IMG/VR virus record: IMGVR_UViG_3300017605_000140
Coordinates: 32,001-96,000 of that record
Length of the DNA stretch: 64,000 bases
Source of the DNA: a virus
Direction: 5' to 3' (one strand)
Both the position numbers and the translations under genes were made by a program. The notes beneath the pieces were generated by a model. That model was not told the origin of the DNA and ran no database searches. It saw only the letters and a list, made by a program, of their open reading frames with translations. Below, in pieces: positions 33,039-63,226 of this stretch. The stretch's first letter is position 1, and each line of letters starts with the position of its first letter.

Positions 33039-35897
33039 TTAAGGTTCAATTAACATCCACGCAACACTACTAGTGTCAGTCGCAGAAGAGCTAGTAATAG
33101 TAAAGCTCGTACCATTAACTCTAGAACTTACGCGAAGGAATCCGACAGTGCCTCCACCATCAAGTTGAGAGGTTAAAAAGATTCTACTGTTTGATGTAAC
33201 TGCTGCGACTGACACAGTAGCGGTTCCCGCTACCAGCGCAACCGATCCTGATAGACGTGTAGCTCTCCATGTTCCTCCGTGTCGTACATAGAGATTGTTG
33301 CTAGTAGTATCTACGGCTAAAGTTCCGTTTAATTGTCCGTGAGAGAACGAAGCATCAGATGGTACGCCAGCTACAGAGGCTGTTACAGGATTACCGGCGA
33401 ATCTGGTAGGAAGAGTTCCACCAAACTGTGAACCATTTCCAGAAGTACAATTTCGGATATTAAAATCTGCGGTACTGGAAGAAGAAAAGAAGATATGGCT
33501 TCCAGTTGGGGCTGTAACATAATTACCTGTTACGCCGCTAAGATCTGCTGTACTTCCCGCACCACTGAATAGTAGAACACCAGAGTTAATAGTGGCTACA
33601 CTTCCGTTGGATATTAGTACATCATGTAAACCAGACATCTGAGCAGACCACGTTATTATTGTCTGTGGTGTAGAGTATCCAGAAAAGAAGTTTCCTGCAT
33701 AGCAATATAGATTATTTACCCAAATAGCTTTTGCAGAGTCATGAACAAATAGGTGAGAACCACCACGGAGAAGAGAAGATTCCATCTTACAGTTTGTTAT
33801 ATAAATACCATTAGGATTATTAGTGTTTCCGGTACCCTGCTCTATTCTTAAGGCACCGTTACTGAAGTTTTCCCAACGACAAGAATCAAATACAATTTGA
33901 TTAGTAGTATCAGCACTGAAACCGAAACCTGAAGCGGCAGCCGAGTTTCTTAGCCAAACTGCTGGAGTCACAGAATCTGCGGCACCGAAAGAAGATTCAA
34001 ACTGGCAGTTGTAAAATCTTGAATCCCAGAACTCTACAGCATCAATCAATACATCATTATTAGAAGTAAAGAAAACTTCTCGGAACATATTATTGTCCGA
34101 GTAGTATGTTCTCAGTACAGCGCCAGTTTGGTTATTACCATTAAGAGTAATTGCTTGAATACCAGCGTATCTATTGTGTGTAGCACCACTAGGATCAGTA
34201 GAAGGACCTGACATATCAATTAAGATACCGTTACCATTCTTTCTGATCTGACTTACTCTTCTACCATCTCCAGTAAGACGTACATTACTAGGAAGTGTTA
34301 GACATACACCAGATACAGGTGTCACTGCGTATGTGCCGGGTGGTAAGTAAACCTCTCCACCACCAGCAGCACTGGCCGCATTAATGGCAGCCTGTATGGC
34401 AGCTTGGTCATTCGTGCTGTTGTTACCTACAGCCCCATATACCGGGTCCTTAACATTGTATACTCCCAGAGATTTTATAACATCTCCAGAAGCTACTGTG
34501 CCAGAAATTGTTCCTACGTTGAGTACTGCGGCTCCGCCTAGACCTAGGTTAGTTCTGGCAGTAGTTGAAGAAGCCAAATCAGAAAGGTTAGAAGCCTTTT
34601 GTGCAGCCCCAGTAATTCTGCTGTCATCTCCTGCGGCTACTGTACCAGAAGTAGTTCCTATATTAGCGGTGGCTGCCGTTCCTAATGCTCCACCCGGGAT
34701 TACCGGAGTAGCGGAGAAAGTCTTCACACCCGCGATAGTCTGTGCTGTAGTAAGATCAACAAAATTCTGTGTAGTTGACCCTGTTCCACCTTGGTTTACT
34801 GGTAAAGCGGATGCTAGGTGTGTAGATACAACAGTCGGACTTGTGGCTGTTCCTGCTAGATCCCCGGCTAGTTGTACAATTCCTGTACTAGAACTTGTGG
34901 CTGCTACAGGAATTTGTCCGAATGCAGCAGCGTCTGTTGAAGCTGTACCGTTTGCTACATTGATAAGTTTTTGAGTATTCATATCTACTGAAGCTGTTGG
35001 AGCACTCATCTGATCTAAACGATTTGCACGAATAACAGAGTTTACGTTAGAAGTACTAGCGAGAGTAGGAGAAGGGTATGAGCCTGTTAGATCACCTGAG
35101 GCTGAACCACTGGGCGGCAGAGTGGCAGGAATCTGCCCGAAAGCTGCTGCATCTGTTGCTACAGTTCCATCAGCCAGTGAAGTTAATTTTTGACTGTTCA
35201 TGCTAACTGAAGCTGTAGGCACAGCCATCTGGTCTAGTCTATTAGCGCGAATAATTGAATTTACGTTAGCTGTAGCAGATAAAGTAGGTCCGGGATATGT
35301 TCCTGTTAAATCTCCAGACGCAGAACCAGTAGGGGGAAGTGTAGTAGGAATCTGCCCAAATGCCGCCACATCGTTAGAAGCACTGCCATTAGCCACTGCT
35401 AGAATCTTGTGGTTATTCATATTAATATCAGTAGTAGGAATATTAATCTGATTCAAAGAAGGCATAGCATGTACGTGACCAGCATCTGTAGCTAGTCCTG
35501 TAGTACCAGCCGCTCTAACACCTAAAGGCTGTATATCAGTAGCAGTACCGTCAAGTTGCACTATTCCCGGAATACTAGTAGAAGCTACTGGCAAAGTTGG
35601 TGTACCGTGAGTGTGATCTGCTCTGGCGTAGCTATTACTAGTTCCTACTGTTGGTGTTTCATCAAATAAAGTTTCTGGAACTACAGAAGAAGCTGGAGGT
35701 ATAACTACAGGAGTTTGCCATGTAGCAGTGGCAGGACTAGTAGCTGTAAGGGCATCACCAGAAACAGGAGTACCAGAGACTGTAACCCCGTTTATCTGCA
35801 CAGATGCCGCAGTTATAGCGCTTTGTAAATAAAGTAGCGCATCGTTATTTGTTATATCCCAATTCGCTTGTCCGCGTATAGGTAATACTAGTGCCAT
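33039..35897 (-). CDS. long fibre/tailspike with pectate-lyase-like beta-helix
   Basis: three neck repeats, then YNVKD..YGAVG....ND.AAIQAAIN....GG.VYLPPGTY. Confidence 0.8.
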   Translation of the reverse strand: MALVLPIRGQANWDITNNDALLYLQSAITAASVQINGVTVSGTPVSGDALTATSPATATWQTPVVIPPASSVVPETLFDETPTVGTSNSYARADHTHGTPTLPVASTSIPGIVQLDGTATDIQPLGVRAAGTTGLATDAGHVHAMPSLNQINIPTTDINMNNHKILAVANGSASNDVAAFGQIPTTLPPTGSASGDLTGTYPGPTLSATANVNSIIRANRLDQMAVPTASVSMNSQKLTSLADGTVATDAAAFGQIPATLPPSGSASGDLTGSYPSPTLASTSNVNSVIRANRLDQMSAPTASVDMNTQKLINVANGTASTDAAAFGQIPVAATSSSTGIVQLAGDLAGTATSPTVVSTHLASALPVNQGGTGSTTQNFVDLTTAQTIAGVKTFSATPVIPGGALGTAATANIGTTSGTVAAGDDSRITGAAQKASNLSDLASSTTARTNLGLGGAAVLNVGTISGTVASGDVIKSLGVYNVKDPVYGAVGNNSTNDQAAIQAAINAASAAGGGEVYLPPGTYAVTPVSGVCLTLPSNVRLTGDGRRVSQIRKNGNGILIDMSGPSTDPSGATHNRYAGIQAITLNGNNQTGAVLRTYYSDNNMFREVFFTSNNDVLIDAVEFWDSRFYNCQFESSFGAADSVTPAVWLRNSAAASGFGFSADTTNQIVFDSCRWENFSNGALRIEQGTGNTNNPNGIYITNCKMESSLLRGGSHLFVHDSAKAIWVNNLYCYAGNFFSGYSTPQTIITWSAQMSGLHDVLISNGSVATINSGVLLFSGAGSTADLSGVTGNYVTAPTGSHIFFSSSSTADFNIRNCTSGNGSQFGGTLPTRFAGNPVTASVAGVPSDASFSHGQLNGTLAVDTTSNNLYVRHGGTWRATRLSGSVALVAGTATVSVAAVTSNSRIFLTSQLDGGGTVGFLRVSSRVNGTSFTITSSSATDTSSVAWMLIEP

Positions 35898-53722: not shown

Positions 53723-53725
53723 AAG

Positions 53726-53809
53726 TGCGCAGAGAAGGACTTGAACCCCCAGACTCCGAAGAGGACGGCTTTACAGGCCGCAACGCTACCAATTACGTGT
53801 TATCTACGC
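53726..53809 (-). tRNA. tRNA-Tyr(GTA)
   Basis: cloverleaf, loop ctGTAaa, long variable arm. Confidence 0.9.
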
Positions 53810-53907
53810 ATTGACTCCGGAGACCACTCTCCGCCTCCACCCTTATCGGGAGTGCGCAAGCATCCGGTGCATTCCCGAAAGGTGGATTTTTCTATCCGGG
53901 ACCTAAG

Positions 53908-53980
53908 GGTGAATGACGGGAATCGAACCCGCTAGTACTTGGACCACAACCAAGTGCCTGACCGTTTGGCTTCATCCACC
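53908..53980 (-). tRNA. tRNA-His(GTG)
   Basis: cloverleaf, loop ttGTGgt, G-1:C73. Confidence 0.9.
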
Positions 53981-53986
53981 ATGAAA

Positions 53987-54157
53987 CTACTTCTTAGCGT
54001 AATATCCCCAGCAGTTATTGGAATGGCTTTCCTCAAATTCAGAGATTCTTTCGCCTAACTTACTTTTATCCTTTAGTTTATATGTTTTTCTGTAACCGCA
54101 GGTGCATATAAACTTAATCTTGTTATCCCATATATCGTACACATATTTAGCATCCAT
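53987..54157 (-). CDS. small hypothetical protein (56 aa, not in ORF track)
   Basis: MDAKYVYDIWDNKIKFICTCGY...; AAGGAG RBS. Confidence 0.55.
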   Translation of the reverse strand: MDAKYVYDIWDNKIKFICTCGYRKTYKLKDKSKLGERISEFEESHSNNCWGYYAKK

Positions 54158-54172
54158 TTTTAACTCCTTAAG

Positions 54173-54246
54173 TCCGCCCGCCGAGATTTGAACTCGAAAT
54201 AACTCGTTATCAGCGAGTCGTGATTACCAGATTTCACTACAGGCGA
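54173..54246 (-). tRNA. tRNA-Ile(GAT)
   Basis: cloverleaf, loop ctGATaa. Confidence 0.88.
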
Positions 54247-54250
54247 TTAT

Positions 54251-54351
54251 TGGATAGCTGAATAATATTAGAGGAGTCGAACCTCAAACTCTATCCATAG
54301 TTCACCAGATAATAATCTGGTAGCTGATACCGTCAGCTTTAACATATTCAG
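54251..54351 (-). ncRNA. tRNA-mimic structured RNA
   Basis: about 12-bp closing stem, three hairpins, T-arm GAGG-TTCGACT-CCTC; 3' CTATCCA complements loop TGGATAG. Confidence 0.6.
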
Positions 54352-54355
54352 TACG

Positions 54356-54428
54356 TACGCCAAGTGGGATTTGAACCCACAACCGCCACCTTATAAGAGT
54401 GGAACTCTGACCGTTGAGTTATTGGCGC
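54356..54428 (-). tRNA. tRNA-Ile(TAT)
   Basis: cloverleaf, loop ctTATaa. Confidence 0.9.
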
Positions 54429-54433
54429 ATAAA

Positions 54434-54545
54434 TAGAGAAATAATATTGTGTCGGGATATATGTCCAGCCATGTTACTGAATCCCCACGCTGGTTGTCTA
54501 ATATACACAATCATACGCTGTCCTAGGAGCGTGCTGATTTCTCTA
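54434..54545 (-). ncRNA. unknown structured RNA
   Basis: TAGAGAAAT/ATTTCTCTA closing stem with internal helices. Confidence 0.5.
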
Positions 54546-54547
54546 AG

Positions 54548-54635
54548 CGGAAGCTAGGAGGGTCGAACTCCTACGGGCATTACCCCCAACGCTTTTCAAG
54601 AGCGCGGCCGTCGCCGTCTTTCGGCTGGAGCTTCC
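54548..54635 (-). tRNA. tRNA-Ser(TGA)
   Basis: loop ctTGAaa, long variable arm, G73. Confidence 0.88.
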
Positions 54636-54637
54636 AT

Positions 54638-54770
54638 AGCACTACGTTAGCGTTCTCCTGCGGCGTTCGTGCAACCGATCACTTCCTAGGCTGACAGGCT
54701 AACGTTTTTCCCTCACATTGCAAATCTGGTTGCACGTGGATGGAAGGCAGGCATGTGCTATGCCTGTGCT
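54638..54770 (-). ncRNA. unknown pseudoknotted RNA
   Basis: crossing 9-bp and 8-bp helices plus a 7-bp hairpin. Confidence 0.55.
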
Positions 54771-54771
54771 G

Positions 54772-54855
54772 CGGAAGATGGAAGAATTGAACTTCCTCGG
54801 GCTTTAAACCCTTACCTCATTAGCAGTGAGGCTGCTAGCCATTCGCTTATCTTCC
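54772..54855 (-). tRNA. tRNA-Ser(GCT)
   Basis: loop ctGCTaa, long variable arm, G73. Confidence 0.88.
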
Positions 54856-54859
54856 AAAG

Positions 54860-54936
54860 AGCACACTGGCGGAATCGAACCGCTAACCAACTGCTTTGCA
54901 GGCAGTCTCCGAACCACACAGATTAGGTCAATGTGC
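54860..54936 (-). tRNA. tRNA-Cys(GCA), atypical D arm
   Basis: loop ctGCAaa, U73. Confidence 0.8.
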
Positions 54937-54997
54937 AAGCGCCGGGCCTTTAACCGTTAGGCACGTAGGTACGGGGTATTTCCTACATCACCGGCCG

Positions 54998-55075
54998 TGG
55001 ATTTGTAGCGATTCGAACGCTAGTCCTGAGAAATTCCGCATGCGGTTTTAGTCTCAGTCGAAACCTTCCAAACCC
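54998..55075 (-). ncRNA. minimal tmRNA (tRNA-like domain only)
   Basis: GGGTTTG-GAAGGTTTCGAC-stemloop-GGAC-TAGCG-TTCGAAT-CGCTA-CAAATCC-A; G3.U70 pair, stemless D loop. Confidence 0.8.
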
Positions 55076-55165
55076 ATTTAATTTTAGTAAGGTGGTCTTG
55101 GACCACTGGGCGGTTTAGGATTATTAGGCCCTGGAAAGGGCTTCGGTGTTTTTGGTGTTGTCACG

Positions 55166-55237
55166 TACCCGCAGAGGGATTCGAACCCCCGACATTCGCC
55201 TTGTAAGGGCGGTGCTCTCCCGCTGAGCTATACGGGC
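55166..55237 (-). tRNA. tRNA-Val(TAC)
   Basis: cloverleaf, loop ctTACaa. Confidence 0.92.
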
Positions 55238-55259
55238 ATTGCCCCAAAGGGCTTTATAC

Positions 55260-55466
55260 TTACTTCTTACGGCCGAAGAAACCCTTCTTAGCCGGTTCTG
55301 GTGCTGGTGGAGTAGCAGGCTGAAGTTCACGACTACGATAAACTCCCACATCTCGCGGATCATCATTATCAGATACCGCAATACGGTCGGTAGATGTCTC
55401 TGTAGCTACTACAGTACCATCTTTACCCGTAACCGTCACTACTTGATCACCCTTACGCCATCCCAT
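55260..55466 (-). CDS. small KOW/SH3-like protein
   Basis: WRKGDQVVTVTGKDGTVV; AAGGAGG RBS. Confidence 0.65.
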   Translation of the reverse strand: MGWRKGDQVVTVTGKDGTVVATETSTDRIAVSDNDDPRDVGVYRSRELQPATPPAPEPAKKGFFGRKK

Positions 55467-55495
55467 AATATCCTCCTTAGTGATGTTATACAACG

Positions 55496-55568
55496 TACTC
55501 CCGGAGGGAATCGAACCCCCAACCTAGTGGGTAGAAGCCACTTGCACTGTCCGTTGTGCTACGAGAGC
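55496..55568 (-). tRNA. tRNA-Arg(TCT)
   Basis: cloverleaf, loop ctTCTac. Confidence 0.9.
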
Positions 55569-55690
55569 ATAATAGGATTTTGATCCGGAATCCTAAAACC
55601 GACTAGCTTATATGTACGTGCTAGAACGCACTCTATGTTTACCGTGTTTATATAGGGACAACCCTCACATAGAAGAACCCTATGTCCCTG

Positions 55691-55763
55691 TGCACCTAGA
55701 GAGACTCGAACTCCCAACTTTTTCGTCCGTAGCGAAACGCTCTGTCCATTGAGCTATAGGTGC
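55691..55763 (-). tRNA. tRNA-Arg(ACG)
   Basis: cloverleaf, loop ctACGga. Confidence 0.92.
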
Positions 55764-55771
55764 ATATTTAC

Positions 55772-56311
55772 TTAGACTGTCTGCTGAACCAACTTGCTTA
55801 ACTTCCGCTTGTGTCTGAAGCTTATCAGATACTCTGCCAGGCGTCCAGGGGTTACTAGGTAGGGAGGATACTCTGTCAGAGGTGATCCTACCTCGCTGTA
55901 GTCCAGTGCTACTAACTGTGAGCATATCAGATGATCAGAATCTTCTACGCGCTTTGCCACTCTAGGATATTTGATTCCTAAACGATATAGTGCTATCGCT
56001 AAATAATCAAGAAAACTATATGGGATACCTTCTTGAAGAATAGCTCTTGTTATGATGCTATTTCGTTGTATATGAGACAGATTAACTATCCCTGTAGACC
56101 ACAGTACAGGACGACCATCATACTTTGCAAGTTCGGATATGAGGGCACCACCCGGTTCAGCTTCAACTATTTTACCATTACCCACGTAAATAAAGGCATG
56201 TTCATAGTTAGTGAATCCGTCACCATTAAGCCACTGACCAAAGCGTATTAGCTTACCTACGCCGCCTTCTATAGAAACTAAACCGAAGTCTCCAGGCTCA
56301 GGTAAAACCAT
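55772..56311 (-). CDS. permuted papain-like NlpC/P60 hydrolase (YaeF/YiiX family)
   Basis: PGD, HAFIYVGNG.IVEA, G.PY, ICSQLV, VTP: His precedes Cys. Confidence 0.82.
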   Translation of the reverse strand: MVLPEPGDFGLVSIEGGVGKLIRFGQWLNGDGFTNYEHAFIYVGNGKIVEAEPGGALISELAKYDGRPVLWSTGIVNLSHIQRNSIITRAILQEGIPYSFLDYLAIALYRLGIKYPRVAKRVEDSDHLICSQLVALDYSEVGSPLTEYPPYLVTPGRLAEYLISFRHKRKLSKLVQQTV

Positions 56312-56332
56312 AATACTCTCCTATTATTAAAG

Positions 56333-56405
56333 TGATCCGACTCGGACTCGAACCGAGGACTCTGAGTTTAAAAGACTCGCACTCTACCAACTGAGTTACC
56401 GGATC
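56333..56405 (-). tRNA. tRNA-Lys(TTT)
   Basis: cloverleaf, loop ctTTTaa. Confidence 0.92.
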
Positions 56406-56467
56406 ATATACTGTCAGTGTTCTGAGGCTGACCTAATGCATTAAGGTAACTGACACAGCCTTCCGCG

Positions 56468-56540
56468 TGCTCCGTGTCCGACTTGAACGGACGACCTGCG
56501 CTTTAAGAGAGCGCTACTCTACCAACTGAGTTAACGGAGC
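56468..56540 (-). tRNA. tRNA-Lys(CTT)
   Basis: cloverleaf, loop ctCTTaa. Confidence 0.92.
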
Positions 56541-56675
56541 ATTAATAGATATGACCTGACCTACACCCGAGTTTCACGGTTAACAGGTAGTAATTGTAGC
56601 CTTTGCGCATCTAGGCTGCATAGCATATCTAAGTAGCACTTTCATCGCCTATAGCGAACCGGTATGCCAAACCCG

Positions 56676-56748
56676 TGGACCTAGGGGGATTCGAACCCCC
56701 AACCTTCTGCGTGCAAAGCAGTTGCTCTTCCATTGGAGCTACAGGCCC
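56676..56748 (-). tRNA. tRNA-Ala(TGC)
   Basis: cloverleaf, G3.U70, loop ttTGCac. Confidence 0.92.
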
Positions 56749-56877
56749 ATAAATCTGAAGGATTCCCCCAACTCCCCGAATTTCACGGATCTTAGCCGAC
56801 GTGCACCTTCAGATCTACAGCTTAGCAGATGTGGCGGTTTTTTCCTAGCAGGCGGTCCGCCAACCGCTGTTAATACT

Positions 56878-57114
56878 TTACCACGTGGTAGCGAATCTTG
56901 CAACTTCTTCTTCAGTCAGCTTACGTCCTACATGCCAACCTTCACAGAAGGCGCAAGGATAGCCTTCCATATCTCTGCTGTACTTTATACTTAATTTATC
57001 TGCTGATTTTTCCGCTGTAGCTTCTGACTTGTAGTCTACCTTATTACCACAAGTCGCATCAATGCCATAGTGGAGTCCCGCAGCTATGTGCATTGATATA
57101 GCTTCGGGTTCCAT
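56878..57114 (-). CDS. small zinc-binding protein
   Basis: C..K..Y.S...A...YPC..C.GWH; directly downstream of Ro60. Confidence 0.7.
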   Translation of the reverse strand: MEPEAISMHIAAGLHYGIDATCGNKVDYKSEATAEKSADKLSIKYSRDMEGYPCAFCEGWHVGRKLTEEEVARFATTW

Positions 57115-57115
57115 A

Positions 57116-58696
57116 TTACCTGTTCTCCCAAGGCCAAGTCTGTGATTCCCCAGCTTCAATCAATGGTATCATCTGAAATCCCTTGTCAGTCAATCCTCCG
57201 AAGGTATGACGCTTCTTCGAACCAGACTCACTGTGCGCTGCTGCGTATCCCTCTAGGTTCCAAGTATACACAGGAACCCTGGCCGGAACAACAGCTAGTG
57301 GATCACCACCGTAACCATTGTACTGCTCATCGGTGATAATGATAATACGATCATGACCATTGAAGCTACCCCGAACCGCCACATCGGTATCAGTGCCTCC
57401 CATATCACGGAACTTATTCAGCATAGGCAGAATAGAGTCACCCTTACGGAATGAAACCTTCTCAAATGCGGGACCATTATAAGCAGAACCGAACTGAACC
57501 AAATCCGCATTCTCAGCACGAAGTGCAAGTGCTGAACCGAAGATAGCAGCCTTATCAGCCATCGTCAACTCAGTGTCAGTACGGTGGTAGCTGAACATAG
57601 AACCCGAACGGTCAACCAGGATAAGCGTACGACCAGTAAGAGACGGAATATTACTGAGAGAAGCATTCAAAGCATCTTCCAATGCCGACCCTATCTTCAA
57701 GCTACCCTTAGTGGCCTGATAAGCCGCAAGGAATCGGAAAGGAAACTGCTTACTCTTAACAACTTGCTCAGGATCAGCAAGCTTACTAAGCACCCCATTC
57801 AGTACCCTAACACTAACACCGGCATCCTGGAAGTTACGCAGATTGCGAAGTAGTGCCATGTATCCCATATTAGGAATAATAGCTTCCCAAGCCTGCTTAT
57901 CCATAGGACCCTGGAGCCATCCTGCCATCGCCTCCCATGTCATTCCGGCTTCACCCAGAAGATTGTTACCCTCGTTGCGCAAAAGCAGTTCTCTGCGCAG
58001 TTCGGGACGGAAACTCACAAGGGTCTCACGATTGCGTATCATCTTAAGAATCTCAGGAAGAACCTCTACATTTCCGTAGCGACGATCCAGAGCATACTTG
58101 AAAAGCTGATTCTGCTTAGAGGATTCCGCAGAAGGGTGTGTCAACTGAATAACATCCGCAAAACGGTATCCCTTAGAATCTGTATCATACTTCAGCAGAC
58201 TGTACTCATTATAGAGCTTCTTTGCTCCATCAGCAACACCCTTCTTCAGGTACGCAGGGAAGTTCTTACCGTACTTAGCCTCGTAGTAAGCCAGCACCTC
58301 TCCAGGCTCATCAGCACGAGCCTGAGAAGCCGCTACGATGGCCCTAGGAGTCCCATTCATGGCCCCAGAGTCGTAGAGTGCCTTAGAACCCTCAACAGCC
58401 GCTACGATGGCCGCAGAGCGCATGAAGGCATCATTGCGAAGCCAGCCAACAAAGCCCTGGAACCACTTAGGGTCCTGAACAGCCACGGAAGCACACAGGT
58501 TGGTGAAACGATCATCACGGTTCTTGGCAGACTCATAGAAAGTATCCTGACCGACAAAATTGGATACTGCCAGCAAGAACAACTCTGACTTGGTATCCCT
58601 CCCAAAAGCTGCGCGACCATCATGATTTACAGTCATACCTGTAGTCTTAATAGGAGACTGCACCCCTGTACGAACCGCCCTATTGAACTTGCTCAT
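57116..58696 (-). CDS. rsr: Ro60-related RNA-binding protein (TROVE + vWA)
   Basis: TFYE, RADEP, LKKG, LLKY, H-P, TWE, MGYMALLRNLRNF, SKQFPFRF; vWA MIDAS DRSGS, GGTD, ITDEQ. Confidence 0.93.
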   Translation of the reverse strand: MSKFNRAVRTGVQSPIKTTGMTVNHDGRAAFGRDTKSELFLLAVSNFVGQDTFYESAKNRDDRFTNLCASVAVQDPKWFQGFVGWLRNDAFMRSAAIVAAVEGSKALYDSGAMNGTPRAIVAASQARADEPGEVLAYYEAKYGKNFPAYLKKGVADGAKKLYNEYSLLKYDTDSKGYRFADVIQLTHPSAESSKQNQLFKYALDRRYGNVEVLPEILKMIRNRETLVSFRPELRRELLLRNEGNNLLGEAGMTWEAMAGWLQGPMDKQAWEAIIPNMGYMALLRNLRNFQDAGVSVRVLNGVLSKLADPEQVVKSKQFPFRFLAAYQATKGSLKIGSALEDALNASLSNIPSLTGRTLILVDRSGSMFSYHRTDTELTMADKAAIFGSALALRAENADLVQFGSAYNGPAFEKVSFRKGDSILPMLNKFRDMGGTDTDVAVRGSFNGHDRIIIITDEQYNGYGGDPLAVVPARVPVYTWNLEGYAAAHSESGSKKRHTFGGLTDKGFQMIPLIEAGESQTWPWENR

Positions 58697-58776
58697 CTTT
58701 CCTCCTATAATGTGGTACGTTATTTAGATAAAATAAAACCCCTCAAGTGCGCCAACGCGGACCAAGGGGAAGATTA

Positions 58777-58890
58777 GTAAGTTCCTAGAAATAACAATCT
58801 CTGGTGTATAGGCACCGTGCCCTAGATGGATTCGAACCATATTATTTCATTTCCAGTGAAGTAACCAGTGATTTTCGCATCGGAATTTAC
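58777..58890 (-). ncRNA. Y-RNA-like module 1 (T arm + acceptor-like hairpin)
   Basis: shared CGATGCGAA..GGTTACTTCA..TTATTTCTAG frame; ATGG-TTCGAAT-CCAT. Confidence 0.75.
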
Positions 58891-58994
58891 TAAGATGAAA
58901 AATAGATGGGTCGCTCTGCTGAACACCTAGTAACCCATAGGGATGATAGGAATTTACATACTGCTGTCTCTCACTCTATTTGTCAATATTGCTA

Positions 58995-59068
58995 TACCCT
59001 AGAAAAAGTCGCTCATGGTGTCTTTGATTACCATTAATGTGAAGTAACCATGAGCTGCGCATCGGGTA
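58995..59068 (-). ncRNA. Y-RNA-like module 2 (minimal)
   Basis: TACCC/GGGTA closing stem, GCTCATGGT/ACCATGAGC helix, shared motifs. Confidence 0.7.
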
Positions 59069-59087
59069 AAACTTATTAAATTATATT

Positions 59088-59227
59088 AACAGCTAGAAAT
59101 AATCAACTACGGCATTTCTATACCGATGCTCTGCCATTGAGCTATTTACCGATGAGTCGGTAACAGAGGATTCGAACCTCTTGTCTTCGGTTCCGGTTGA
59201 AGTATCCGTAATTTTCGCAACGCTGTC
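59088..59227 (-). ncRNA. YrlA-type Y RNA (module 3) with permuted tRNA-like domain
   Basis: order T arm (AGAGG-TTCGAAT-CCTCT), closed acceptor hairpin (TTACCGA-CTCA-TCGGTAA), D arm (TAGCTCAATGGCAGAGC). Confidence 0.85.
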
Positions 59228-59333
59228 AAAACTGAATGATAGAAGGGATAAGAACGTTCGTATCAAGATTACTGGGACGTTGTACTCGATTACAGCCGCT
59301 AGCAGGCTACCCAAACCTTCTATCAAGTTTACG

Positions 59334-59420
59334 GTGACTAGAAATAATGATAAAAGTATTATAAACCCCATTTTCGGTGGAGTATTTTCATTGAAGTATC
59401 TCTTATCTTCGCATCGTCAC
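59334..59420 (-). ncRNA. Y-RNA-like module 4
   Basis: GTGAC/GTCAC closing stem; CGATGCGAA..GATACTTCA..TTATTTCTAG. Confidence 0.7.
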
Positions 59421-59423
59421 AAG

Positions 59424-59496
59424 CTCGCCCACCTGGACTCGAACCAGGAACCGTCGCATTAACAGTGCGAAACTCTGCCAATTGAGTTATAGGCGA
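59424..59496 (-). tRNA. tRNA-Asn(GTT)
   Basis: cloverleaf, loop ctGTTaa. Confidence 0.92.
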
Positions 59497-59541
59497 ATAC
59501 GGTCACTGTAGCTCTCGCGGTAATGACCTTGTGTACTACAT

Positions 59542-59571
59542 ATACTACCAGAGGTTGTTAGGCTCTGTCAA
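59542..59571 (-). promoter_or_regulatory. promoter upstream of the tRNA-Asn / Y RNA / Ro60 unit
   Basis: TTGACA-18 nt-TAGTAT. Confidence 0.65.
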
Positions 59572-59572
59572 G

Positions 59573-59643
59573 CACGCCCTGTAGGAATCGGACCCACGCT
59601 TAGAGGTTTGGAATCTCTCGCACTACCATTATACTAAGGGCAT
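59573..59643 (-). tRNA. tRNA-Trp(CCA)
   Basis: cloverleaf, loop ttCCAaa. Confidence 0.85.
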
Positions 59644-59656
59644 ATTATATTGGACG

Positions 59657-59739
59657 TACTCCCTGTCGGACTCGAACCGACACGTCATAAGACACGAGAT
59701 CCTAAATCTCGCGCGGCTACCAGATTACGCCAAGGGAGC
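59657..59739 (-). tRNA. tRNA-Leu(TAG)
   Basis: loop ttTAGga, long variable arm. Confidence 0.92.
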
Positions 59740-59757
59740 ATAATAACCTGTATTACG

Positions 59758-59838
59758 TACCCACAGCCGGACTCGAACCGGCACGACCGAAGTCAACGGA
59801 TTTTAAGTCCGTCGTGGCTGCCATTTCACCATGCGGGC
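59758..59838 (-). tRNA. tRNA-Leu(TAA)
   Basis: loop ctTAAaa, long variable arm. Confidence 0.92.
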
Positions 59839-59903
59839 ATTGCTGACTAGCTACGATTAAGTTGTATACCTGGAGCTTATCACACGTTACAACGCTAGTC
59901 AAA

Positions 59904-59995
59904 CTAGATTCTAGTGAGGATCGAACTCACAAGCAGCCATCAGGATAAAGCGTACACCCTTACCCCACCTGTGTACAGGTTGCCACAGAATCTAG
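59904..59995 (-). ncRNA. T-arm-containing structured RNA
   Basis: CTAGATTCTG/TAGAATCTAG stem stacked on GTGAG-TTCGATC-CTCAC. Confidence 0.55.
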
Positions 59996-59997
59996 AG

Positions 59998-60070
59998 TAC
60001 TCCAAGTCGGACTCGAACCGACAACTAGCGGTACTTGAAGCCGCTTCCTCTACCATTGGGATATTGGAGC
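59998..60070 (-). tRNA. tRNA-Leu(CAA), short variable arm
   Basis: loop ttCAAgt; TATCCCAATGGTAGAGGA D arm resembles actinobacterial Leu(CAA). Confidence 0.8.
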
Positions 60071-60176
60071 ATTCTCGGTATTAACCGCTACCGATGGGCG
60101 TAACCGTCACCGTCAGGTGTCTACGGTATTTCCGTAGGAACATTAGCACTATCAAAATAGACATCATAAACTAGAG

Positions 60177-60248
60177 AGCCTCTCCCCGGATTCGAACCGA
60201 GCACTTGGCTTTACAAGAGCCGCGCTTTTCCCACTAAGCTAGAGAGGC
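60177..60248 (-). tRNA. tRNA-Thr(TGT)
   Basis: cloverleaf, loop ctTGTaa. Confidence 0.9.
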
Positions 60249-60406
60249 ATTACCACTATACAAATTATACTGACACCAGTGGCCCATTTCAGTAACCCTA
60301 TCCGAAATTTCTAAGCTTAGGGGGTATATGTGGTGAATAGTTTAAAGACATCACACCTGTCGGTCTTTAGAGAATTGCGGAAGGAGGAACACAATTCTCT
60401 AGCTTA

Positions 60407-60706
60407 TTACGGCGCTGTTCCCGTAGCCTTAACGATAAAGTCGTTATTATCGTTAATTGTAAAATCAGTAGGAAGCGCAAATGGAGATGAATTGGTAAGC
60501 TGTACAAGGTACTGTCCGTCAGTAGCCCCAGCACCAGGAGTGTTGGCAGCTAAATTAAGAATAGAGCGTACTGTTGTTGGAAAAGTCGCCCCACTAGTTG
60601 TAGGTACTGGGAATACATAAGCATGCCCATCCTGCATAACTGCGGCACGTACTTGATCACCAACAGCTAAAGCGTCAGCCTTAACAATTGTATATGTGAA
60701 TGCCAT
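60407..60706 (-). CDS. hypothetical beta-rich protein
   Basis: AAAGG RBS; 99-aa ORF. Confidence 0.65.
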   Translation of the reverse strand: MAFTYTIVKADALAVGDQVRAAVMQDGHAYVFPVPTTSGATFPTTVRSILNLAANTPGAGATDGQYLVQLTNSSPFALPTDFTINDNNDFIVKATGTAP

Positions 60707-60949
60707 ATTTGAACCTTTCTAGAAAGAATTACTTTATGCTATAGCAATTCCTAATTGTACCCTAGAAAGATTATTTAGTGGACTGGTGGTCTCATCCCTC
60801 TGCCTGCTTCCGTAATCGTCCAAATACGGAGTATCTTCCACCACGGAGGCCCTACCCGTAACCGCGCCTCTTCTTGCTTGCCAAGCCGTCGAATAGGTGG
60901 CGACTTGAAGCACTCCTACCCAGGATTGGGTATCCTATTACGTGCTACG

Positions 60950-61021
60950 TACCCCCACGGAGAGTTGAACTCCGTCTTCAAGATTGAAAGTCTTGTGTAC
61001 TAACCGATATACTATGGGGGC
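60950..61021 (-). tRNA. tRNA-Glu(TTC)
   Basis: cloverleaf, loop ctTTCaa. Confidence 0.9.
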
Positions 61022-61200
61022 AAAAACTACTGATACTTATATATGAAAAACGCGTCTATTCATATAGATCTGTATCAGTAGTATATGAGAAAGACTCACG
61101 CATCCTCTCTCATTGGATCAGCATCAAATAGGAGGGGGATTTTCGTCTTCACCCTAGCCCTTTATCTCAGGCCACGAAATCCTATAAGGCGTGTTGCTGG

Positions 61201-61271
61201 TGCCGCTACAGGGACTTGAACCCTGTCTATAAGCGTGAGAAGCTTACGTACTACCTATATACGATAGCGGC
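61201..61271 (-). tRNA. tRNA-Glu(CTC)
   Basis: cloverleaf, loop ttCTCac. Confidence 0.9.
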
Positions 61272-61410
61272 ATAAGAGTGTAGATTTCCCGCACGGCCAT
61301 CTACACTATATCCGGTGCTCGCGGACCGGTTTCTACCTTGGCTCTACATAACCCGGCCAAGTGGGTGATTATATTCCCCGTGCAGGTTTATAATCTTTAA
61401 GTTTTTAAAG

Positions 61411-61483
61411 CGCCCCTGACCGGATTTGAACCGGCGACCTACGGCGTGACAAGCCGTTGCTCTCACCACTGAGCTACAGGAGC
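61411..61483 (-). tRNA. tRNA-Asp(GTC)
   Basis: cloverleaf, loop ttGTCac. Confidence 0.92.
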
Positions 61484-61514
61484 ATTGCCCTTGCGGGCTA
61501 TTAGTGTTACTGTA

Positions 61515-61817
61515 TCACAGAACTTCTGGCCAGACAAGCTCTGGGGTAATCTCTGTTGCCCGACCATTCTTTACTACAACTCTGGAAATATCTAGCGAAG
61601 ATTCACCAATACGTTCTATGACTAAGTAACTACTGGGGTACAGTGTAGCAAGTGTTTTTAGGTCTGTCAACCAATCGTACCATTTAACCGCACCCATAGT
61701 AACACCATTATAACTATCCACATACCAGCCTTCGTAGACTCCGGAATTATCATTTAAAACATCGACAATTCCAGTAATATCAGTGTCTATCACTGTAAAA
61801 GTTGAATAATAACCCAT
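61515..61817 (-). CDS. conserved phage hypothetical protein
   Basis: MGYYS.F...KWYDW..DL..L...YP......GE; AGGAGG RBS. Confidence 0.75.
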   Translation of the reverse strand: MGYYSTFTVIDTDITGIVDVLNDNSGVYEGWYVDSYNGVTMGAVKWYDWLTDLKTLATLYPSSYLVIERIGESSLDISRVVVKNGRATEITPELVWPEVL

Positions 61818-61844
61818 ATTTCTATCCTCCTATAGATATTAAAG

Positions 61845-61917
61845 CTCCGGGAGCAGGAATCGGACCTGCGGAATTCTGATCCAAAGTCAGAGTGGCCTAC
61901 CAGCAGACCATCCCGGA
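61845..61917 (-). tRNA. tRNA-Gln(TTG)
   Basis: cloverleaf, loop ctTTGga. Confidence 0.88.
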
Positions 61918-62031
61918 AAGTGGGTATGCGCGTTTGGATTCGGATTGCAGCCCTACCAAATCTTCAGGCATACCCTATCACACAGCTTTACTAGTATCCG
62001 TGCGCTTACTCTTTGCCCTACTTACGCCCTG

Positions 62032-62102
62032 CTCCCGATCAAGGTTACGATCCTCGGTCATCCGCTCCAGAGGCGGAGGTAATTCCATTATACGAATCGG
62101 GA
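62032..62102 (-). tRNA. tRNA-Gln(CTG), atypical T loop ATCGTAA
   Basis: cloverleaf, loop ctCTGga. Confidence 0.85.
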
Positions 62103-62233
62103 ATAAGCACAGTCCCGCCATTCTGGTCCTGTCCTAGATTTTGTCAGTCTAGGAGTTGCGGGTTCTGAGGTGACTAATCTCAGCGATTTCTTCTGCTGTG
62201 CACAGACAGGAGATATCCTTGGATATCTCCTTG

Positions 62234-62304
62234 AGCGATATGGGAGATTCGAACTCCCTCGAACAACTTGGAAGGATGTCATGCAGCCTATACATCAATA
62301 TCGC
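62234..62304 (-). tRNA. tRNA-Gly(TCC)
   Basis: cloverleaf, loop ctTCCaa, U73. Confidence 0.88.
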
Positions 62305-62408
62305 ATTGGTGGAAAGTCGCGTAGCTGTCTTCAAACCCCTGACATTGCTACCACTTACCTCTCGCGGGGAACGAGCAAAGGTTCCTCAATAAAGGCCGGA
62401 ACATGTGC

Positions 62409-62792
62409 CTAATCTGGTAGTGGACGACCGCAGCCGCCACAAATATTATATGGATTTTTAGGGATGTTAGCCCAGGTATACGGATATCCCTTTAACGTAA
62501 CTTTTGAAGGTTCACCATACCCTACATTGGTGTCTATGTCAACTATACGATTTTCACCATCTAATGGGTAGAGAGACAACGCATAACCCTTATCATTACC
62601 CGGATCTTCATCGAAGATATCCTCAAAGATAACATGCGCTAAATACTCAGCATCATTGTAATTACGCTTCGCTCTTTCGGTATCCATAGACCTCTTTACT
62701 ACGGATGGTAATTCTGTTCCATCCCAGTGACTGTATAGATAAATACCTGGATTGTCACCATGATGAATATAAACGTTCGCTCTGTCTCCCAT
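62409..62792 (-). CDS. conserved phage hypothetical protein
   Basis: MGDRAN...IYLYSHWDG; AGGAGG RBS. Confidence 0.75.
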   Translation of the reverse strand: MGDRANVYIHHGDNPGIYLYSHWDGTELPSVVKRSMDTERAKRNYNDAEYLAHVIFEDIFDEDPGNDKGYALSLYPLDGENRIVDIDTNVGYGEPSKVTLKGYPYTWANIPKNPYNICGGCGRPLPD

Positions 62793-62818
62793 AGTGCCTC
62801 CTTGTTGTTGAGGACTAA

Positions 62819-62847
62819 ATAGTACCACGAAAGTTAAGGCTTGTAAA
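62819..62847 (-). promoter_or_regulatory. putative promoter
   Basis: TTTACA-17 nt-TACTAT, same CAACAACAAGGAGG leader as the 14348 promoter. Confidence 0.55.
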
Positions 62848-62848
62848 G

Positions 62849-62925
62849 TGGGGGCGCAGGTGGGAGTCAAACCCACTACTTTCCAGCTTATGAGGCTGAC
62901 GAGACATCGTTTCTCCATCCGCGCA
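62849..62925 (-). tRNA. tRNA-Met(CAT), initiator-like
   Basis: loop ctCATaa, unpaired 1:72, encoded CCA. Confidence 0.8.
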
Positions 62926-62926
62926 G

Positions 62927-62997
62927 TGGCTGTACAGAGGTTCGAACTCTGCCAAATACCTTATGAGAGTATTCCGGTCACCAGACCATCTACAGCC
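62927..62997 (-). tRNA. tRNA-Met or Ile2 (CAT)
   Basis: loop ctCATaa, paired acceptor, weak D arm. Confidence 0.8.
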
Positions 62998-63007
62998 ATT
63001 ATAAATG

Positions 63008-63078
63008 TGCCGCCCCACAGACTCGAACTGTGATAATCTGGGCTTCAACCAGAGGCTCTACCTTTGAGCTAAAGCGGC
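63008..63078 (-). tRNA. tRNA-Phe(GAA)
   Basis: cloverleaf, loop ttGAAgc. Confidence 0.9.
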
Positions 63079-63149
63079 ATAATGAGTTATTAAAATGTTG
63101 AGCACTAATATCTATTTATATTGTGAGTGTATACATTTGTGCTAACTCA

Positions 63150-63226
63150 TGGTCGGGATGACACGATTCGAACGTGCGACTTTCCGGTCCCAAACCGGAA
63201 GCTCTACCAAGCTGAGCTACATCCCG
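63150..63226 (-). tRNA. tRNA-Pro(TGG)
   Basis: cloverleaf, loop ttTGGga, encoded CCA. Confidence 0.93.

What the first reader, a model, noticed from the sequence alone, without database searches (positions are those of the whole stretch)
54998..55075. 78-nt tmRNA reduced to its tRNA-like domain
Seen: acceptor stem GGGTTTG/CAAATCC with G3.U70 and discriminator A (alanine identity). It has the stemless tmRNA D-loop ending GGTTTCGAC, the GGAC linker and a canonical T arm. Helix 2 (TGAGA/TCTCA) is capped by only 20 nt, so there are no pseudoknots or tag frame inside. Established: these are the SmpB-binding features of tmRNA. From memory, TLD-only forms have rare precedents (some mitochondria and a mycobacteriophage). 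Inference: it is an SmpB/EF-Tu decoy inhibiting host trans-translation, or a tag-less ribosome rescue RNA.
Basis: partly seen in the sequence, partly recalled or inferred. Interest (0 to 1): 0.8.

Follow-up and report, generated by a model that had tools for sequence, protein, structure and literature searches.

The report
Phage mini-tmRNA lacking the tag template
This Streptomyces-type phage carries a real 78-base gene for only the alanine-accepting, tRNA-like end of the bacterial ribosome-rescue RNA (tmRNA). One such RNA is published, from mycobacteriophage DS6A, but here it proves to be one copy of a large, mostly unannotated phage family that probably interferes with the host's rescue-and-tag system.

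Summary
It has a 7-bp acceptor stem with G3·U70 and A73, a 12-nt D-loop ending GGUUUCGAC, a 5-bp helix 2 capped by 20 nt, GGAC, and a 5-7-5 T arm.

It is not chance. Sixteen of 20 base pairs show compensatory changes. A covariance model built without this phage's clade scores the element 90.1 bits, against 27.4 for the next hit, the phage's own tRNA-Ala.

The published "TLD-only" tmRNA of mycobacteriophage DS6A belongs to the same family (66.6 bits) and shares the same inner hairpin. Rfam's tmRNA model calls the orthologues in BRock, pSt2308 and LuckySocke above threshold. It gives this divergent copy only 13.4 bits. ARAGORN misses all copies.

The family has no conserved tag frame, and this phage has no SmpB or CCA-adding enzyme, so it must use host factors.

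The most likely function is competition with host tmRNA for SmpB, AlaRS and stalled ribosomes. That is inferred, not tested here. This scan has already reported the same family on other genomes. Verdict: a new member of a known kind.

The parts
54998..55075 (-). Whole mini-tmRNA (TLD-only tmRNA) gene, 78 nt, mature 5' G1 to discriminator A73; CCA is not encoded
   Evidence: Sequence read. R1 91.5 bits. Clade-excluded model R2 90.1 bits, E 6.7e-21.
55069..55075 (-). Acceptor stem 5' strand, GGGUUUG (G1, G2, G3)
   Evidence: Pairs with 54999-55005. In 60 aligned family members G1-C72, G2-C71 and G3·U70 are invariant, and positions 4-6 covary.
55057..55068 (-). 12-nt stemless D-loop, GAAGGUUUCGAC
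   Evidence: Same length and same ...UUCGAC end as the D-loop of a genuine Nonomuraea tmRNA (ACUGGCUUCGAC). A GGNNUCGAC motif recurs when the 5' half is left free in the search.
55052..55056 (-). Helix 2 5' strand, UGAGA
   Evidence: Pairs with 55027-55031. All 5 pairs show changes on both sides across the family. Also predicted independently by RNAalifold.
55032..55051 (-). 20-nt cap of helix 2: A-rich loop CUAAAA, hairpin CCG-CAUG-CGG, then AAUU
   Evidence: The AAAnCCGCAYGCGG module is conserved across the family and in DS6A. The hairpin is 92.8% paired.
55027..55031 (-). Helix 2 3' strand, UCUCA
55023..55026 (-). GGAC linker between helix 2 and the T arm
   Evidence: Identical in the genuine tmRNA and in the Rfam tmRNA consensus alignment to the LuckySocke orthologue.
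55006..55022 (-). T arm, UAGCG-UUCGAAU-CGCUA
   Evidence: 100% paired in 60 sequences, and all 5 pairs show double changes.
54999..55005 (-). Acceptor stem 3' strand, CAAAUCC (U70 at 55001)
54998..54998 (-). Discriminator A73
   Evidence: A in 118 of 120 hits to a pattern that did not specify it.
54937..54997 (-). 61-nt structured spacer RNA (three-way junction) directly 3' of the element; context, probably not part of the mature mini-tmRNA
   Evidence: Conserved after the element in LuckySocke, Alone3, L239, L253 and L288. 16 predicted pairs, 4 of them compensatory in 4 sequences.
55165..55237 (-). Upstream neighbour tRNA-Val(UAC) of the same array; context
   Evidence: ARAGORN and Rfam. The order Val, element, Cys, Ser is kept in BRock, pSt2308, LuckySocke, Alone3 and GiJojo.
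54860..54936 (-). Downstream neighbour, atypical tRNA-Cys(GCA); context
   Evidence: Rfam tRNA 31 bits. Missed by ARAGORN. BRock annotates a tRNA-Cys at the syntenic place.

Best explanation
The element is a gene for a CDS-less, TLD-only tmRNA (a 'mini-tmRNA') of the same family as the one published for mycobacteriophage DS6A.

Inferred mechanism:
1. It is transcribed with the minus-strand tRNA array and cut out by the host enzymes that process the neighbouring tRNAs. It shares their ..AAU|G leader and their 'discriminator + C, no CCA' trailer.
2. The host CCA-adding enzyme adds CCA.
3. Host alanyl-tRNA synthetase charges it through G3·U70 and A73.
4. Host SmpB binds its D-loop, T-loop and helix 2 elbow.
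5. Because it has no resume codon, tag frame or pseudoknots, it competes with host tmRNA for SmpB, EF-Tu and non-stop ribosomes. Stalled products are then not given the SsrA degradation tag during infection.

Shown here: the identity, fold, conservation and family membership of the RNA, and the absence of phage SmpB and of a tag frame.

Inferred only: expression, processing, charging, SmpB binding and the effect on tagging.
For: Anatomy: all parts are present at the stated coordinates.

Homology to the tmRNA TLD: the element matches a genuine actinobacterial tmRNA position for position (RF00023 158.9 bits): 7-bp G3·U70 acceptor, 12-nt D-loop ending UUCGAC, helix 2, GGAC, 5-7-5 T arm, A73. Rfam RF00023 calls the syntenic orthologues above its gathering score as model positions 1-374 with the middle deleted: BRock 64.5, pSt2308 61.0, LuckySocke 57.1. 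It also of 20 other family loci.

Family and selection:
Of these, 117 had a 7/7 acceptor stem, and 118 had G3·U70 and A73. Among the 94 unique sequences, 91 had a fully paired T stem.
- A second pattern, anchored on the inner hairpin and the 3' half, gave 88 unique sequences. 87 of them had a 7/7 acceptor starting GGG, with a GGNNUCGAC-type D-loop.
- On 60 sequences, 97.2% of cells are paired and 16 of 20 pairs changed on both sides. No shuffle out of 500 reached this, and slid controls gave 35-51% paired.
- Clade-excluded model R2 scores the element 90.1 bits, against 27.4 for the phage's tRNA-Ala.
- DS6A's published TLD-only RNA (L130:28478-28557) scores 66.6 bits although it was not in the seed, and it has the same AAAACCGCACGCGG module.

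Reliance on host factors: the complete 110-kb genome has no SmpB and no CCA-adding enzyme.

No tag: only 16 of 91 members have an in-frame stop after the hairpin GCA.

Shared processing signals with the array's tRNAs.

[quoted passage not shown] The roles of the TLD, AlaRS, EF-Tu and SmpB are reviewed in PMC8012679.
Against: There is no evidence here for expression, processing or aminoacylation of this RNA, and SmpB binding cannot be computed with these tools.

This copy is the most divergent from the tmRNA consensus (RF00023 13.4 bits), and ARAGORN does not call it.

The cited inhibition in E. coli reportedly did not need chargeability. A pure SmpB sponge therefore does not explain why G1-C72, G2-C71, G3·U70 and A73 are invariant. 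That invariance points to a step on the ribosome, as in the rescue rival.

The conserved inner hairpin has no assigned role.

The Alone3 copy is partly degenerate (R1 66 bits versus 94 in LuckySocke; two mismatched T-stem pairs). The RNA may therefore be dispensable in the laboratory.

Why a lytic phage gains from blocking tagging is not established.
Confidence: 0.6

Rival explanations
1. Productive tag-less ribosome rescue. The Ala-charged mini-tmRNA with host SmpB enters non-stop ribosomes and accepts the nascent chain. The peptidyl-RNA is then released by drop-off plus peptidyl-tRNA hydrolase, or by an ArfB-like factor. Ribosomes are freed during infection without marking the products for proteolysis. 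The conserved inner hairpin would stand in for the missing mRNA-like domain.
For: G1-C72, G2-C71, G3·U70 and A73 are invariant while positions 4-6 vary freely. This argues that charging is under selection. According to PMC4131195, the sponge effect does not require charging. CDS-less tmRNAs persist with SmpB in some organelles (PMC11915505). The hairpin module is conserved beyond what capping a helix requires.
Against: No release mechanism is known for a peptidyl-TLD with no template. No phage-encoded release factor, hydrolase or SmpB was looked for beyond SmpB. The only reported experimental effect of such an RNA is inhibition.
Confidence: 0.2
2. A processing signal only. The tRNA-shaped fold serves as an RNase P / RNase Z cleavage site that punctuates the long array or late-operon transcript. 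The excised RNA has no function of its own.
For: In the window it sits in a tRNA array without its own promoter or terminator above chance level. It shares the leader and trailer features of the tRNAs. In one group of small phages it lies between the prohead protease and major capsid genes on the same strand.
Against: Cleavage signals do not need G3·U70, A73, the tmRNA-specific D-loop, GGAC or the inner hairpin, yet these are conserved across more than 140 distinct sequences. 94 of the 120 loci have no tRNA nearby.
Confidence: 0.08
3. One half of a split tmRNA. The tag template is encoded separately, for example by the 61-nt RNA directly downstream. That RNA holds a 12-codon frame, GCC...UAA (AGDVGNTPYLRA), starting 2 nt after A73.
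For: The frame exists in the window, LuckySocke, Alone3, L239 and L253.
Against: The stop codon is lost in L288, while three stems are kept through four compensatory changes. This indicates selection on structure, not on coding. The peptide does not resemble an SsrA tag. A 12-codon open frame is expected by chance. GiJojo and most family members lack the 61-nt element. No SsrA-like ...ALAA* frame lies near the array. Rfam finds no mRNA-like domain in the genome.
Confidence: 0.04
4. A decaying remnant: a pseudogene left by internal deletion of a phage tmRNA, or a degenerate duplicate of the phage tRNA-Ala, with no function.
For: The Alone3 copy is partly degenerate. This copy scores poorly with RF00023.
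Against: All 20 pairs are intact here. Compensatory substitutions in every helix, and the same architecture in hundreds of unrelated phage contigs, show purifying selection. The tRNA model RF00005 does not match it, and the phage tRNA-Ala scores only 27-28 bits with the family models.
Confidence: 0.03
5. A decoy or ligand for something other than trans-translation, for example a bait for host tRNA/tmRNA-cleaving defence nucleases or a partner of the phage's Ro60/Y-RNA system.
For: The phage encodes a Ro60 (TROVE+VWA) protein inside the same array and carries its own near-complete tRNA set. Such a set is often interpreted as a counter to tRNA-targeting defences (my knowledge, not tested here).
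Against: Most family members are in small phages with no tRNAs, and no Ro60 appeared among their recurrent neighbour genes. The conserved positions are exactly those of the tmRNA TLD.
Confidence: 0.05

Closest known systems
TLD-only (CDS-less) tmRNA of mycobacteriophage DS6A (tmRNA Website tmID 11587 / Phage__Mycobacterium.9; Mao et al. 2009 as cited in PMC4131195 and PMC11915505)
   Same: The architecture is the same piece by piece: G3·U70 acceptor, stemless D-loop ending UCGAC, 5-bp helix 2, an A-rich loop plus CCGCAYGCGG hairpin, a 4-nt linker, a 5-7-5 T arm, A73, and no tag frame. DS6A scores 66.6 bits with the family model although it was not in its seed.
   Different: DS6A has GGUGGUCGAC and GCAC where this element has GGUUUCGAC and GGAC. 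DS6A is a 60-kb temperate mycobacteriophage in which the gene stands alone between protein genes. Here the gene is one unit of an array of about 30 tRNA genes in a 110-kb Streptomyces-type phage. Sequence identity between the two is low outside the conserved motifs.
Bacterial one-piece tmRNA (SsrA, Rfam RF00023)
   Same: The 5' and 3' ends form the same tRNA-like domain, with alanine identity and SmpB-site motifs. The orthologues pass the Rfam gathering score.
   Different: About 300 nt are missing: the resume codon, the tag reading frame, helix 5 and all four pseudoknots. This copy scores only 13.4 bits.
CDS-less organellar tmRNAs (jakobid/oomycete mitochondria; Mallomonadaceae plastids, ~65 bp; PMC11915505)
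   Same: They are also reduced to the tRNA-like domain and lack a tag frame.
   Different: They are organellar and vertically inherited from the endosymbiont, and they work with a nucleus-encoded SmpB. No Rfam mt-tmRNA hit appeared at E<=10 on this element. No sequence comparison with those RNAs was done here.
tRNA-Ala
   Same: Both have the G1-C72, G2-C71, G3·U70, A73 acceptor and a canonical T arm. The phage has its own tRNA-Ala(UGC) with the same identity set.
   Different: The element has no D stem and no anticodon arm. RF00005 does not match it. The tRNA-Ala scores only 27-28 bits with the family models, against 90-91 for the element.

Membership tests
TLD-only (CDS-less) phage tmRNA, DS6A type | 7-bp acceptor stem with G3·U70 and discriminator A | tested here: met
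   GGGUUUG/CAAAUCC + A. Invariant in 60 aligned members.
TLD-only (CDS-less) phage tmRNA, DS6A type | Stemless D-loop ending (G)GNNUCGAC, a 4-nt GGAC-type linker, a 5-7-5 T arm directly abutting the acceptor 3' strand | tested here: met
TLD-only (CDS-less) phage tmRNA, DS6A type | Helix 2 closed after a few pairs by a short cap (A-rich loop plus CCGCAYGCGG-type hairpin) instead of pseudoknots and a tag frame | tested here: met
   UGAGA/UCUCA capped by CUAAAA-CCGCAUGCGG-AAUU. Same module in DS6A. No conserved in-frame stop.
TLD-only (CDS-less) phage tmRNA, DS6A type | Scores with a covariance model of the family built without it | tested here: met
   R2, with this phage's clade excluded: 90.1 bits, E 6.7e-21.
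TLD-only (CDS-less) phage tmRNA, DS6A type | Inhibits host tmRNA / binds SmpB (the reported property of the DS6A-like molecule) | not testable with these tools
   Known only second-hand from PMC4131195 and PMC11915505. The primary paper (Mao et al. 2009) is not held.
TLD-only (CDS-less) phage tmRNA, DS6A type | Expressed, CCA-tailed and alanylated | not testable with these tools
   No RNA holder was listed for this stretch. Needs wet-lab work.
tmRNA (SsrA), Rfam RF00023 | Reaches the curated gathering score (47 bits) | tested here: not met
   13.4 bits, truncated match; absent. The orthologues do reach it: 57-64.5 bits.
tmRNA (SsrA), Rfam RF00023 | mRNA-like domain with resume codon, tag reading frame and stop | tested here: not met
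   Only 20 nt lie between the helix 2 strands. Family-wide there is no conserved frame.
tmRNA (SsrA), Rfam RF00023 | Pseudoknots PK1-PK4 | tested here: not met
   There is no room for them: the element is 78 nt in total.
tmRNA (SsrA), Rfam RF00023 | tRNA-like domain with alanine identity | tested here: met
tRNA (RF00005) | Cloverleaf with D stem and anticodon arm; model match | tested here: not met
   No RF00005 or ARAGORN call on 54998-55075.
Permuted / two-piece tmRNA (RF04321 and relatives) | Acceptor piece and coding piece in permuted order; model match | tested here: not met
   RF04321 gives 11.4 bits, E 0.9. The 5' and 3' TLD halves are in normal order and joined by helix 2.

The most novel reading that the evidence does not exclude
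The mini-tmRNA is not merely an SmpB sponge. It is an alanine-charged RNA that is used on the ribosome, and phages use it to convert host ribosome rescue from 'rescue and destroy' into tag-less rescue or +Ala termination. The conserved A-rich loop and CCGCAYGCGG hairpin would replace the mRNA-like domain, for example by triggering release or drop-off. This would be a widespread phage strategy acting on trans-translation.
Probability: 0.2. Interest if true: 0.75.

Novelty: new member of a known kind. Interest (0 to 1): 0.5.

Why it matters
Trans-translation is nearly universal in bacteria and is a drug target. A natural 78-nt RNA that keeps only the parts needed to engage AlaRS, SmpB and EF-Tu would be a ready-made probe or inhibitor.

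The literature held here names a single phage example, DS6A. Only about nine copies turned up in 185,579 bacterial species genomes. Manipulating ribosome rescue may therefore be a common, phage-specific strategy.

There is also a practical point. ARAGORN, the tool phage annotators use, misses these genes. They are unannotated in BRock, pSt2308, LuckySocke and Alone3, and are covered by a probably mis-started protein call in GiJojo.

Cultured Streptomyces phages carry orthologues, including a natural partly degenerate copy in Alone3. The function can therefore be tested directly.

Tried and rejected
- ARAGORN on the window and on 120 family loci made no correct call. One spurious 324-nt 'tmRNA' call overlaps the element in L087.
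- Rfam on the window at gathering score, and at E<=10 on a 401-nt stretch, found nothing on the element. The whole-genome RF00023 search preferred the tRNA-Ala. Only a 106-nt query gave a 13.4-bit truncated match.
- The single-sequence MFE fold does not recover the T arm and is not significant (z -1.78). Comparative data were needed.
Nothing can be said about expression or habitat.
- The promoter/terminator scan gave nothing above shuffled expectation near the element.
- A hidden tag frame starting at the hairpin GCA is rejected. The window copy would read ACGISQD-stop, but only 16 of 91 members have any in-frame stop.
- The 61-nt downstream RNA as a tag template is rejected as the main reading. 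The stop is lost in L288 and selection is on structure.
- The search for ...ALAA*-type frames in the window found three hits, none near the array, at or below my rough estimate of the chance level.
- A conserved protein neighbour across the family was not found. The contexts differ: head module, replication module, tRNA arrays.
- The first MAFFT alignment of 96 sequences (A1) misaligned the 5' acceptor strands because D-loop lengths differ. It was replaced by A2 and A4.
- Mao et al. 2009 could not be read.
- The papers on AcrIIIA1 and CoCoNuTs mention tmRNA but do not bear on this RNA.
- The match in Enterococcus Schiekvirus phages is only a partial look-alike of the 3' half (20.7 bits).

Full report
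**1. What is in the sequence**

The window is bases 32001-96000 of a complete 110,389-bp viral record with direct terminal repeats. Its minus strand carries an array of 28 ARAGORN-called tRNA genes, plus one more tRNA seen only by Rfam.

The finding lies in this array, between tRNA-Val(UAC) at 55165-55237 and an atypical tRNA-Cys(GCA) at 54860-54936. Read on the minus strand from 55075 to 54998 it is:

- GGGUUUG
- GAAGGUUUCGAC
- UGAGA
- CUAAAA-CCGCAUGCGG-AAUU
- UCUCA
- GGAC
- UAGCG-UUCGAAU-CGCUA
- CAAAUCC
- A

CCA is not encoded.

**2. Is it more than chance?**

The D-loop/GGAC/T-loop pattern occurs once in the window and never in 100 shuffles.

Syntenic copies, in the order Val, element, Cys, Ser, exist in Streptomyces phages LuckySocke, Alone3, GiJojo, BRock and pSt2308. 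They differ from the window copy by compensatory changes in the acceptor stem (U5-A68 to C-G), in helix 2 and throughout the T stem.

The features that pattern left free were nearly always present:
- a 7/7 acceptor stem in 117 of 120 loci;
- G3·U70 in 118 and discriminator A in 118;
- among the 94 unique sequences, a fully paired T stem in 91 and a fully paired 5-bp helix 2 in 77.

A second scan was anchored on the inner hairpin and the 3' half, leaving the 5' half free. 87 of its 88 unique sequences had a perfect acceptor stem beginning GGG, with a D-loop of the GGNNUCGAC type.

On a 60-sequence alignment the proposed structure has 97.2% of cells paired, and 16 of 20 pairs changed on both sides. 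No shuffle out of 500 reached these values, and slid controls gave 35-51% paired. RNAalifold independently finds the acceptor stem, helix 2 and the T arm.

A covariance model built without the window or its relatives scores the element 90.1 bits (E 6.7e-21) over its full length. The next hit in the window is the phage's tRNA-Ala, at 27.4 bits.

**3. What it is**

I compared the element with a genuine actinobacterial tmRNA from Nonomuraea (RF00023 158.9 bits; tag ANSKRTVVGQDSLALAA). The element reproduces its tRNA-like domain position for position. That tmRNA has the GGGGGUG/CACCUCC acceptor with G3·U70, the 12-nt D-loop ACUGGCUUCGAC, helix 2a, GGAC, a 5-7-5 T arm and A73.

Rfam's curated tmRNA model calls the orthologues above its 47-bit gathering score, as model positions 1-374 with about 300 positions deleted: BRock 64.5, pSt2308 61.0, LuckySocke 57.1. 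It also of 20 other family loci. The window copy has an A/U-rich acceptor and an unusual T stem, and reaches only 13.4 bits. ARAGORN calls none of them.

The one published phage example is the 'TLD only' tmRNA of mycobacteriophage DS6A (PMC4131195; PMC11915505). I located it at JN698994:28478-28557. It has the same architecture, including the same AAAACCGCACGCGG module, and scores 66.6 bits with the family model although it was not in the seed.

The element is thus a new member of the DS6A-type CDS-less tmRNA family. It is not a tRNA: RF00005 gives no match and there is no anticodon arm. It is not a full or permuted tmRNA.

**4. Distribution and context of the family**

The same pattern found only about nine true copies in one genome for each of 185,579 bacterial and archaeal species. 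The hosts named on those records are a Mycobacterium MAG, Nonomuraea, Acidimicrobiales, Christensenella, Saccharibacteria, Sinomicrobium and Hydrogenophaga. The family is therefore phage-associated and spans several host phyla.

94 of the 120 loci have no tRNA gene nearby. In one group the gene lies between the prohead protease and the major capsid gene on the same strand. In another group it lies in a replication module. No protein neighbour is shared across the family.

In the window's phage the gene is part of the tRNA array. The array's tRNAs also lack an encoded CCA, usually have a C after the discriminator, and are preceded by ..AAU|G. The element shares all three traits. This argues that it is processed like them.

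The phage has no SmpB and no CCA-adding enzyme. It does encode a T4-type large terminase, MazG and a Ro60 (TROVE+VWA) protein. A tail-spike-like protein is 31-37% identical to those of Streptomyces phages. An actinomycete host is therefore likely, but this is inferred.

**5. How it most likely works**

Established background (PMC8012679): the tmRNA TLD is charged by AlaRS, is bound by SmpB in place of the anticodon arm, is delivered by EF-Tu to non-stop ribosomes, and accepts the nascent chain. Translation then resumes on the tag frame.

The mini-tmRNA keeps everything needed up to peptidyl transfer and nothing needed afterwards. There is no conserved frame: only 16 of 91 members have an in-frame stop after the hairpin GCA.

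The literature reports that a DS6A-like molecule strongly inhibits E. coli tmRNA, perhaps by titrating SmpB. My best explanation (0.6) is that the RNA is excised from the array transcript, CCA-tailed and alanylated by host enzymes, and bound by host SmpB. It then competes with host tmRNA, so that stalled products are not SsrA-tagged during infection.

The main rival (0.2) is productive tag-less rescue. It is favoured by the strict invariance of G1-C72, G2-C71, G3·U70 and A73, because the cited inhibition reportedly did not need chargeability.

All functional steps are inference. No RNA data exist for this phage.

**6. Other readings considered**

- Processing punctuation only (0.08). This does not explain the conservation of alanine identity and of tmRNA-specific motifs.
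The 12-codon frame AGDVGNTPYLRA* exists in five relatives. In L288 the stop is lost, while three stems are kept by four compensatory changes. That RNA is a structured three-way junction, not a template.
- A pseudogene (0.03). This is contradicted by the covariation.
- A decoy for other factors, or a link to Ro60 (0.05).

**7. Novelty and verdict**

The kind is known (DS6A; organellar CDS-less forms). This copy is a new member. Its only peculiarities are the tRNA-array setting, its divergence from the Rfam consensus, and the companion 61-nt RNA.

The size of the family, the shared inner hairpin and its near-absence from annotation are not in the papers I could search. Other agents of this scan have already reported the family on other genomes; I re-derived it independently here.

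Interest 0.5: the RNA is real, under selection, experimentally tractable and biologically unexplained. It is not categorically new.

Noticed in passing
window 54937-54997 (-): A 61-nt RNA directly 3' of the mini-tmRNA folds as a three-way junction: a 5-bp closing stem, a 7-bp hairpin with a 12-nt loop, and a 4-bp hairpin with a 9-nt loop. It is conserved in LuckySocke, Alone3, L239, L253 and L288, always between the mini-tmRNA and tRNA-Cys, with 4 compensatory pairs. It is absent from GiJojo. It holds a 12-codon GCC..UAA frame whose stop is lost in L288. It has no Rfam family.
   Followed up: partly
window 54860-54936 (-): An atypical tRNA-Cys(GCA) with U73 and an enlarged, poorly paired D region. 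ARAGORN misses it and Rfam tRNA gives only 31 bits. BRock annotates a tRNA-Cys at the syntenic place, but on the opposite strand.
   Followed up: partly
window 57119-58696 (-): A 526-aa Ro60-like protein (TROVE E 2e-18, plus a weak, sub-cutoff VWA_2 match) is encoded inside the tRNA array. First-stage notes on this window propose Y-RNA modules next to it; I did not test those.
   Followed up: partly
window 53725-63226 (-): Nearly all of the array's tRNA genes lack an encoded CCA. Most have a C right after the discriminator and an ..AAT|G or ..TAT|G leader. The phage encodes no CCA-adding enzyme.
   Followed up: partly
L001:1368-1494 (LuckySocke) and the same place in Alone3: An unannotated 127-nt tRNA-like gene (RF00005 36.9 bits) with an insertion of about 55 nt lies between tRNA-Val and the mini-tmRNA. 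The window has an unrelated 89-nt spacer there (55076-55164).
   Followed up: partly
L003:1502-1744 (GiJojo gene 44): The annotated 'hypothetical protein' starts at an ATG 2 nt upstream of the mini-tmRNA and reads through it. The real small ORF, which looked KOW-like to me by eye (KKGDRVRIIGG...), probably starts at the GTG just after the RNA's 3' end.
   Followed up: no
L002:1484-1560 (Alone3): The flanks are almost identical to LuckySocke, but the mini-tmRNA itself is heavily changed: D-loop AAUGGCACGAC, two mismatched T-stem pairs, R1 66 bits versus 94. Its T-stem 5' strand GCGGG equals that of the Nonomuraea tmRNA T stem. This may be decay or gene conversion.
   Followed up: partly
L014, L021, L022, L037, L046, L053, L060, L069, L111, L126 and others: In one group of small phages the mini-tmRNA gene sits on the coding strand between the prohead protease (Peptidase_S78) and the major capsid gene. 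Excision of the RNA would therefore cut the late transcript at that point.
   Followed up: partly
L146, L177, L186, L196, L201, L206, L218 (Treponemataceae/Rectinemataceae and a Shapirobacteria MAG): Elements of about 110 nt have a tmRNA-type D-loop, GGAC, a T arm and a CACCUCC-A end. Only 47-48 nt lie between the D-loop and GGAC, and the 5' region is long. They may be another short tmRNA-like form in bacterial genomes.
   Followed up: no
L324:378-429 (Enterococcus phage EfsSzw-1 and six other Enterococcus phage records): A 52-nt stretch has a tmRNA-like GGAC, T arm and CAGCUCC-A end, but no matching acceptor 5' strand (R1 20.7 bits).
   Followed up: no
window 33530-33577 (-): A 21-codon open frame ends ...VREVQQILAA*. 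It is the only SsrA-like ending in the window, about 21 kb from the element, and is consistent with chance.
   Followed up: no
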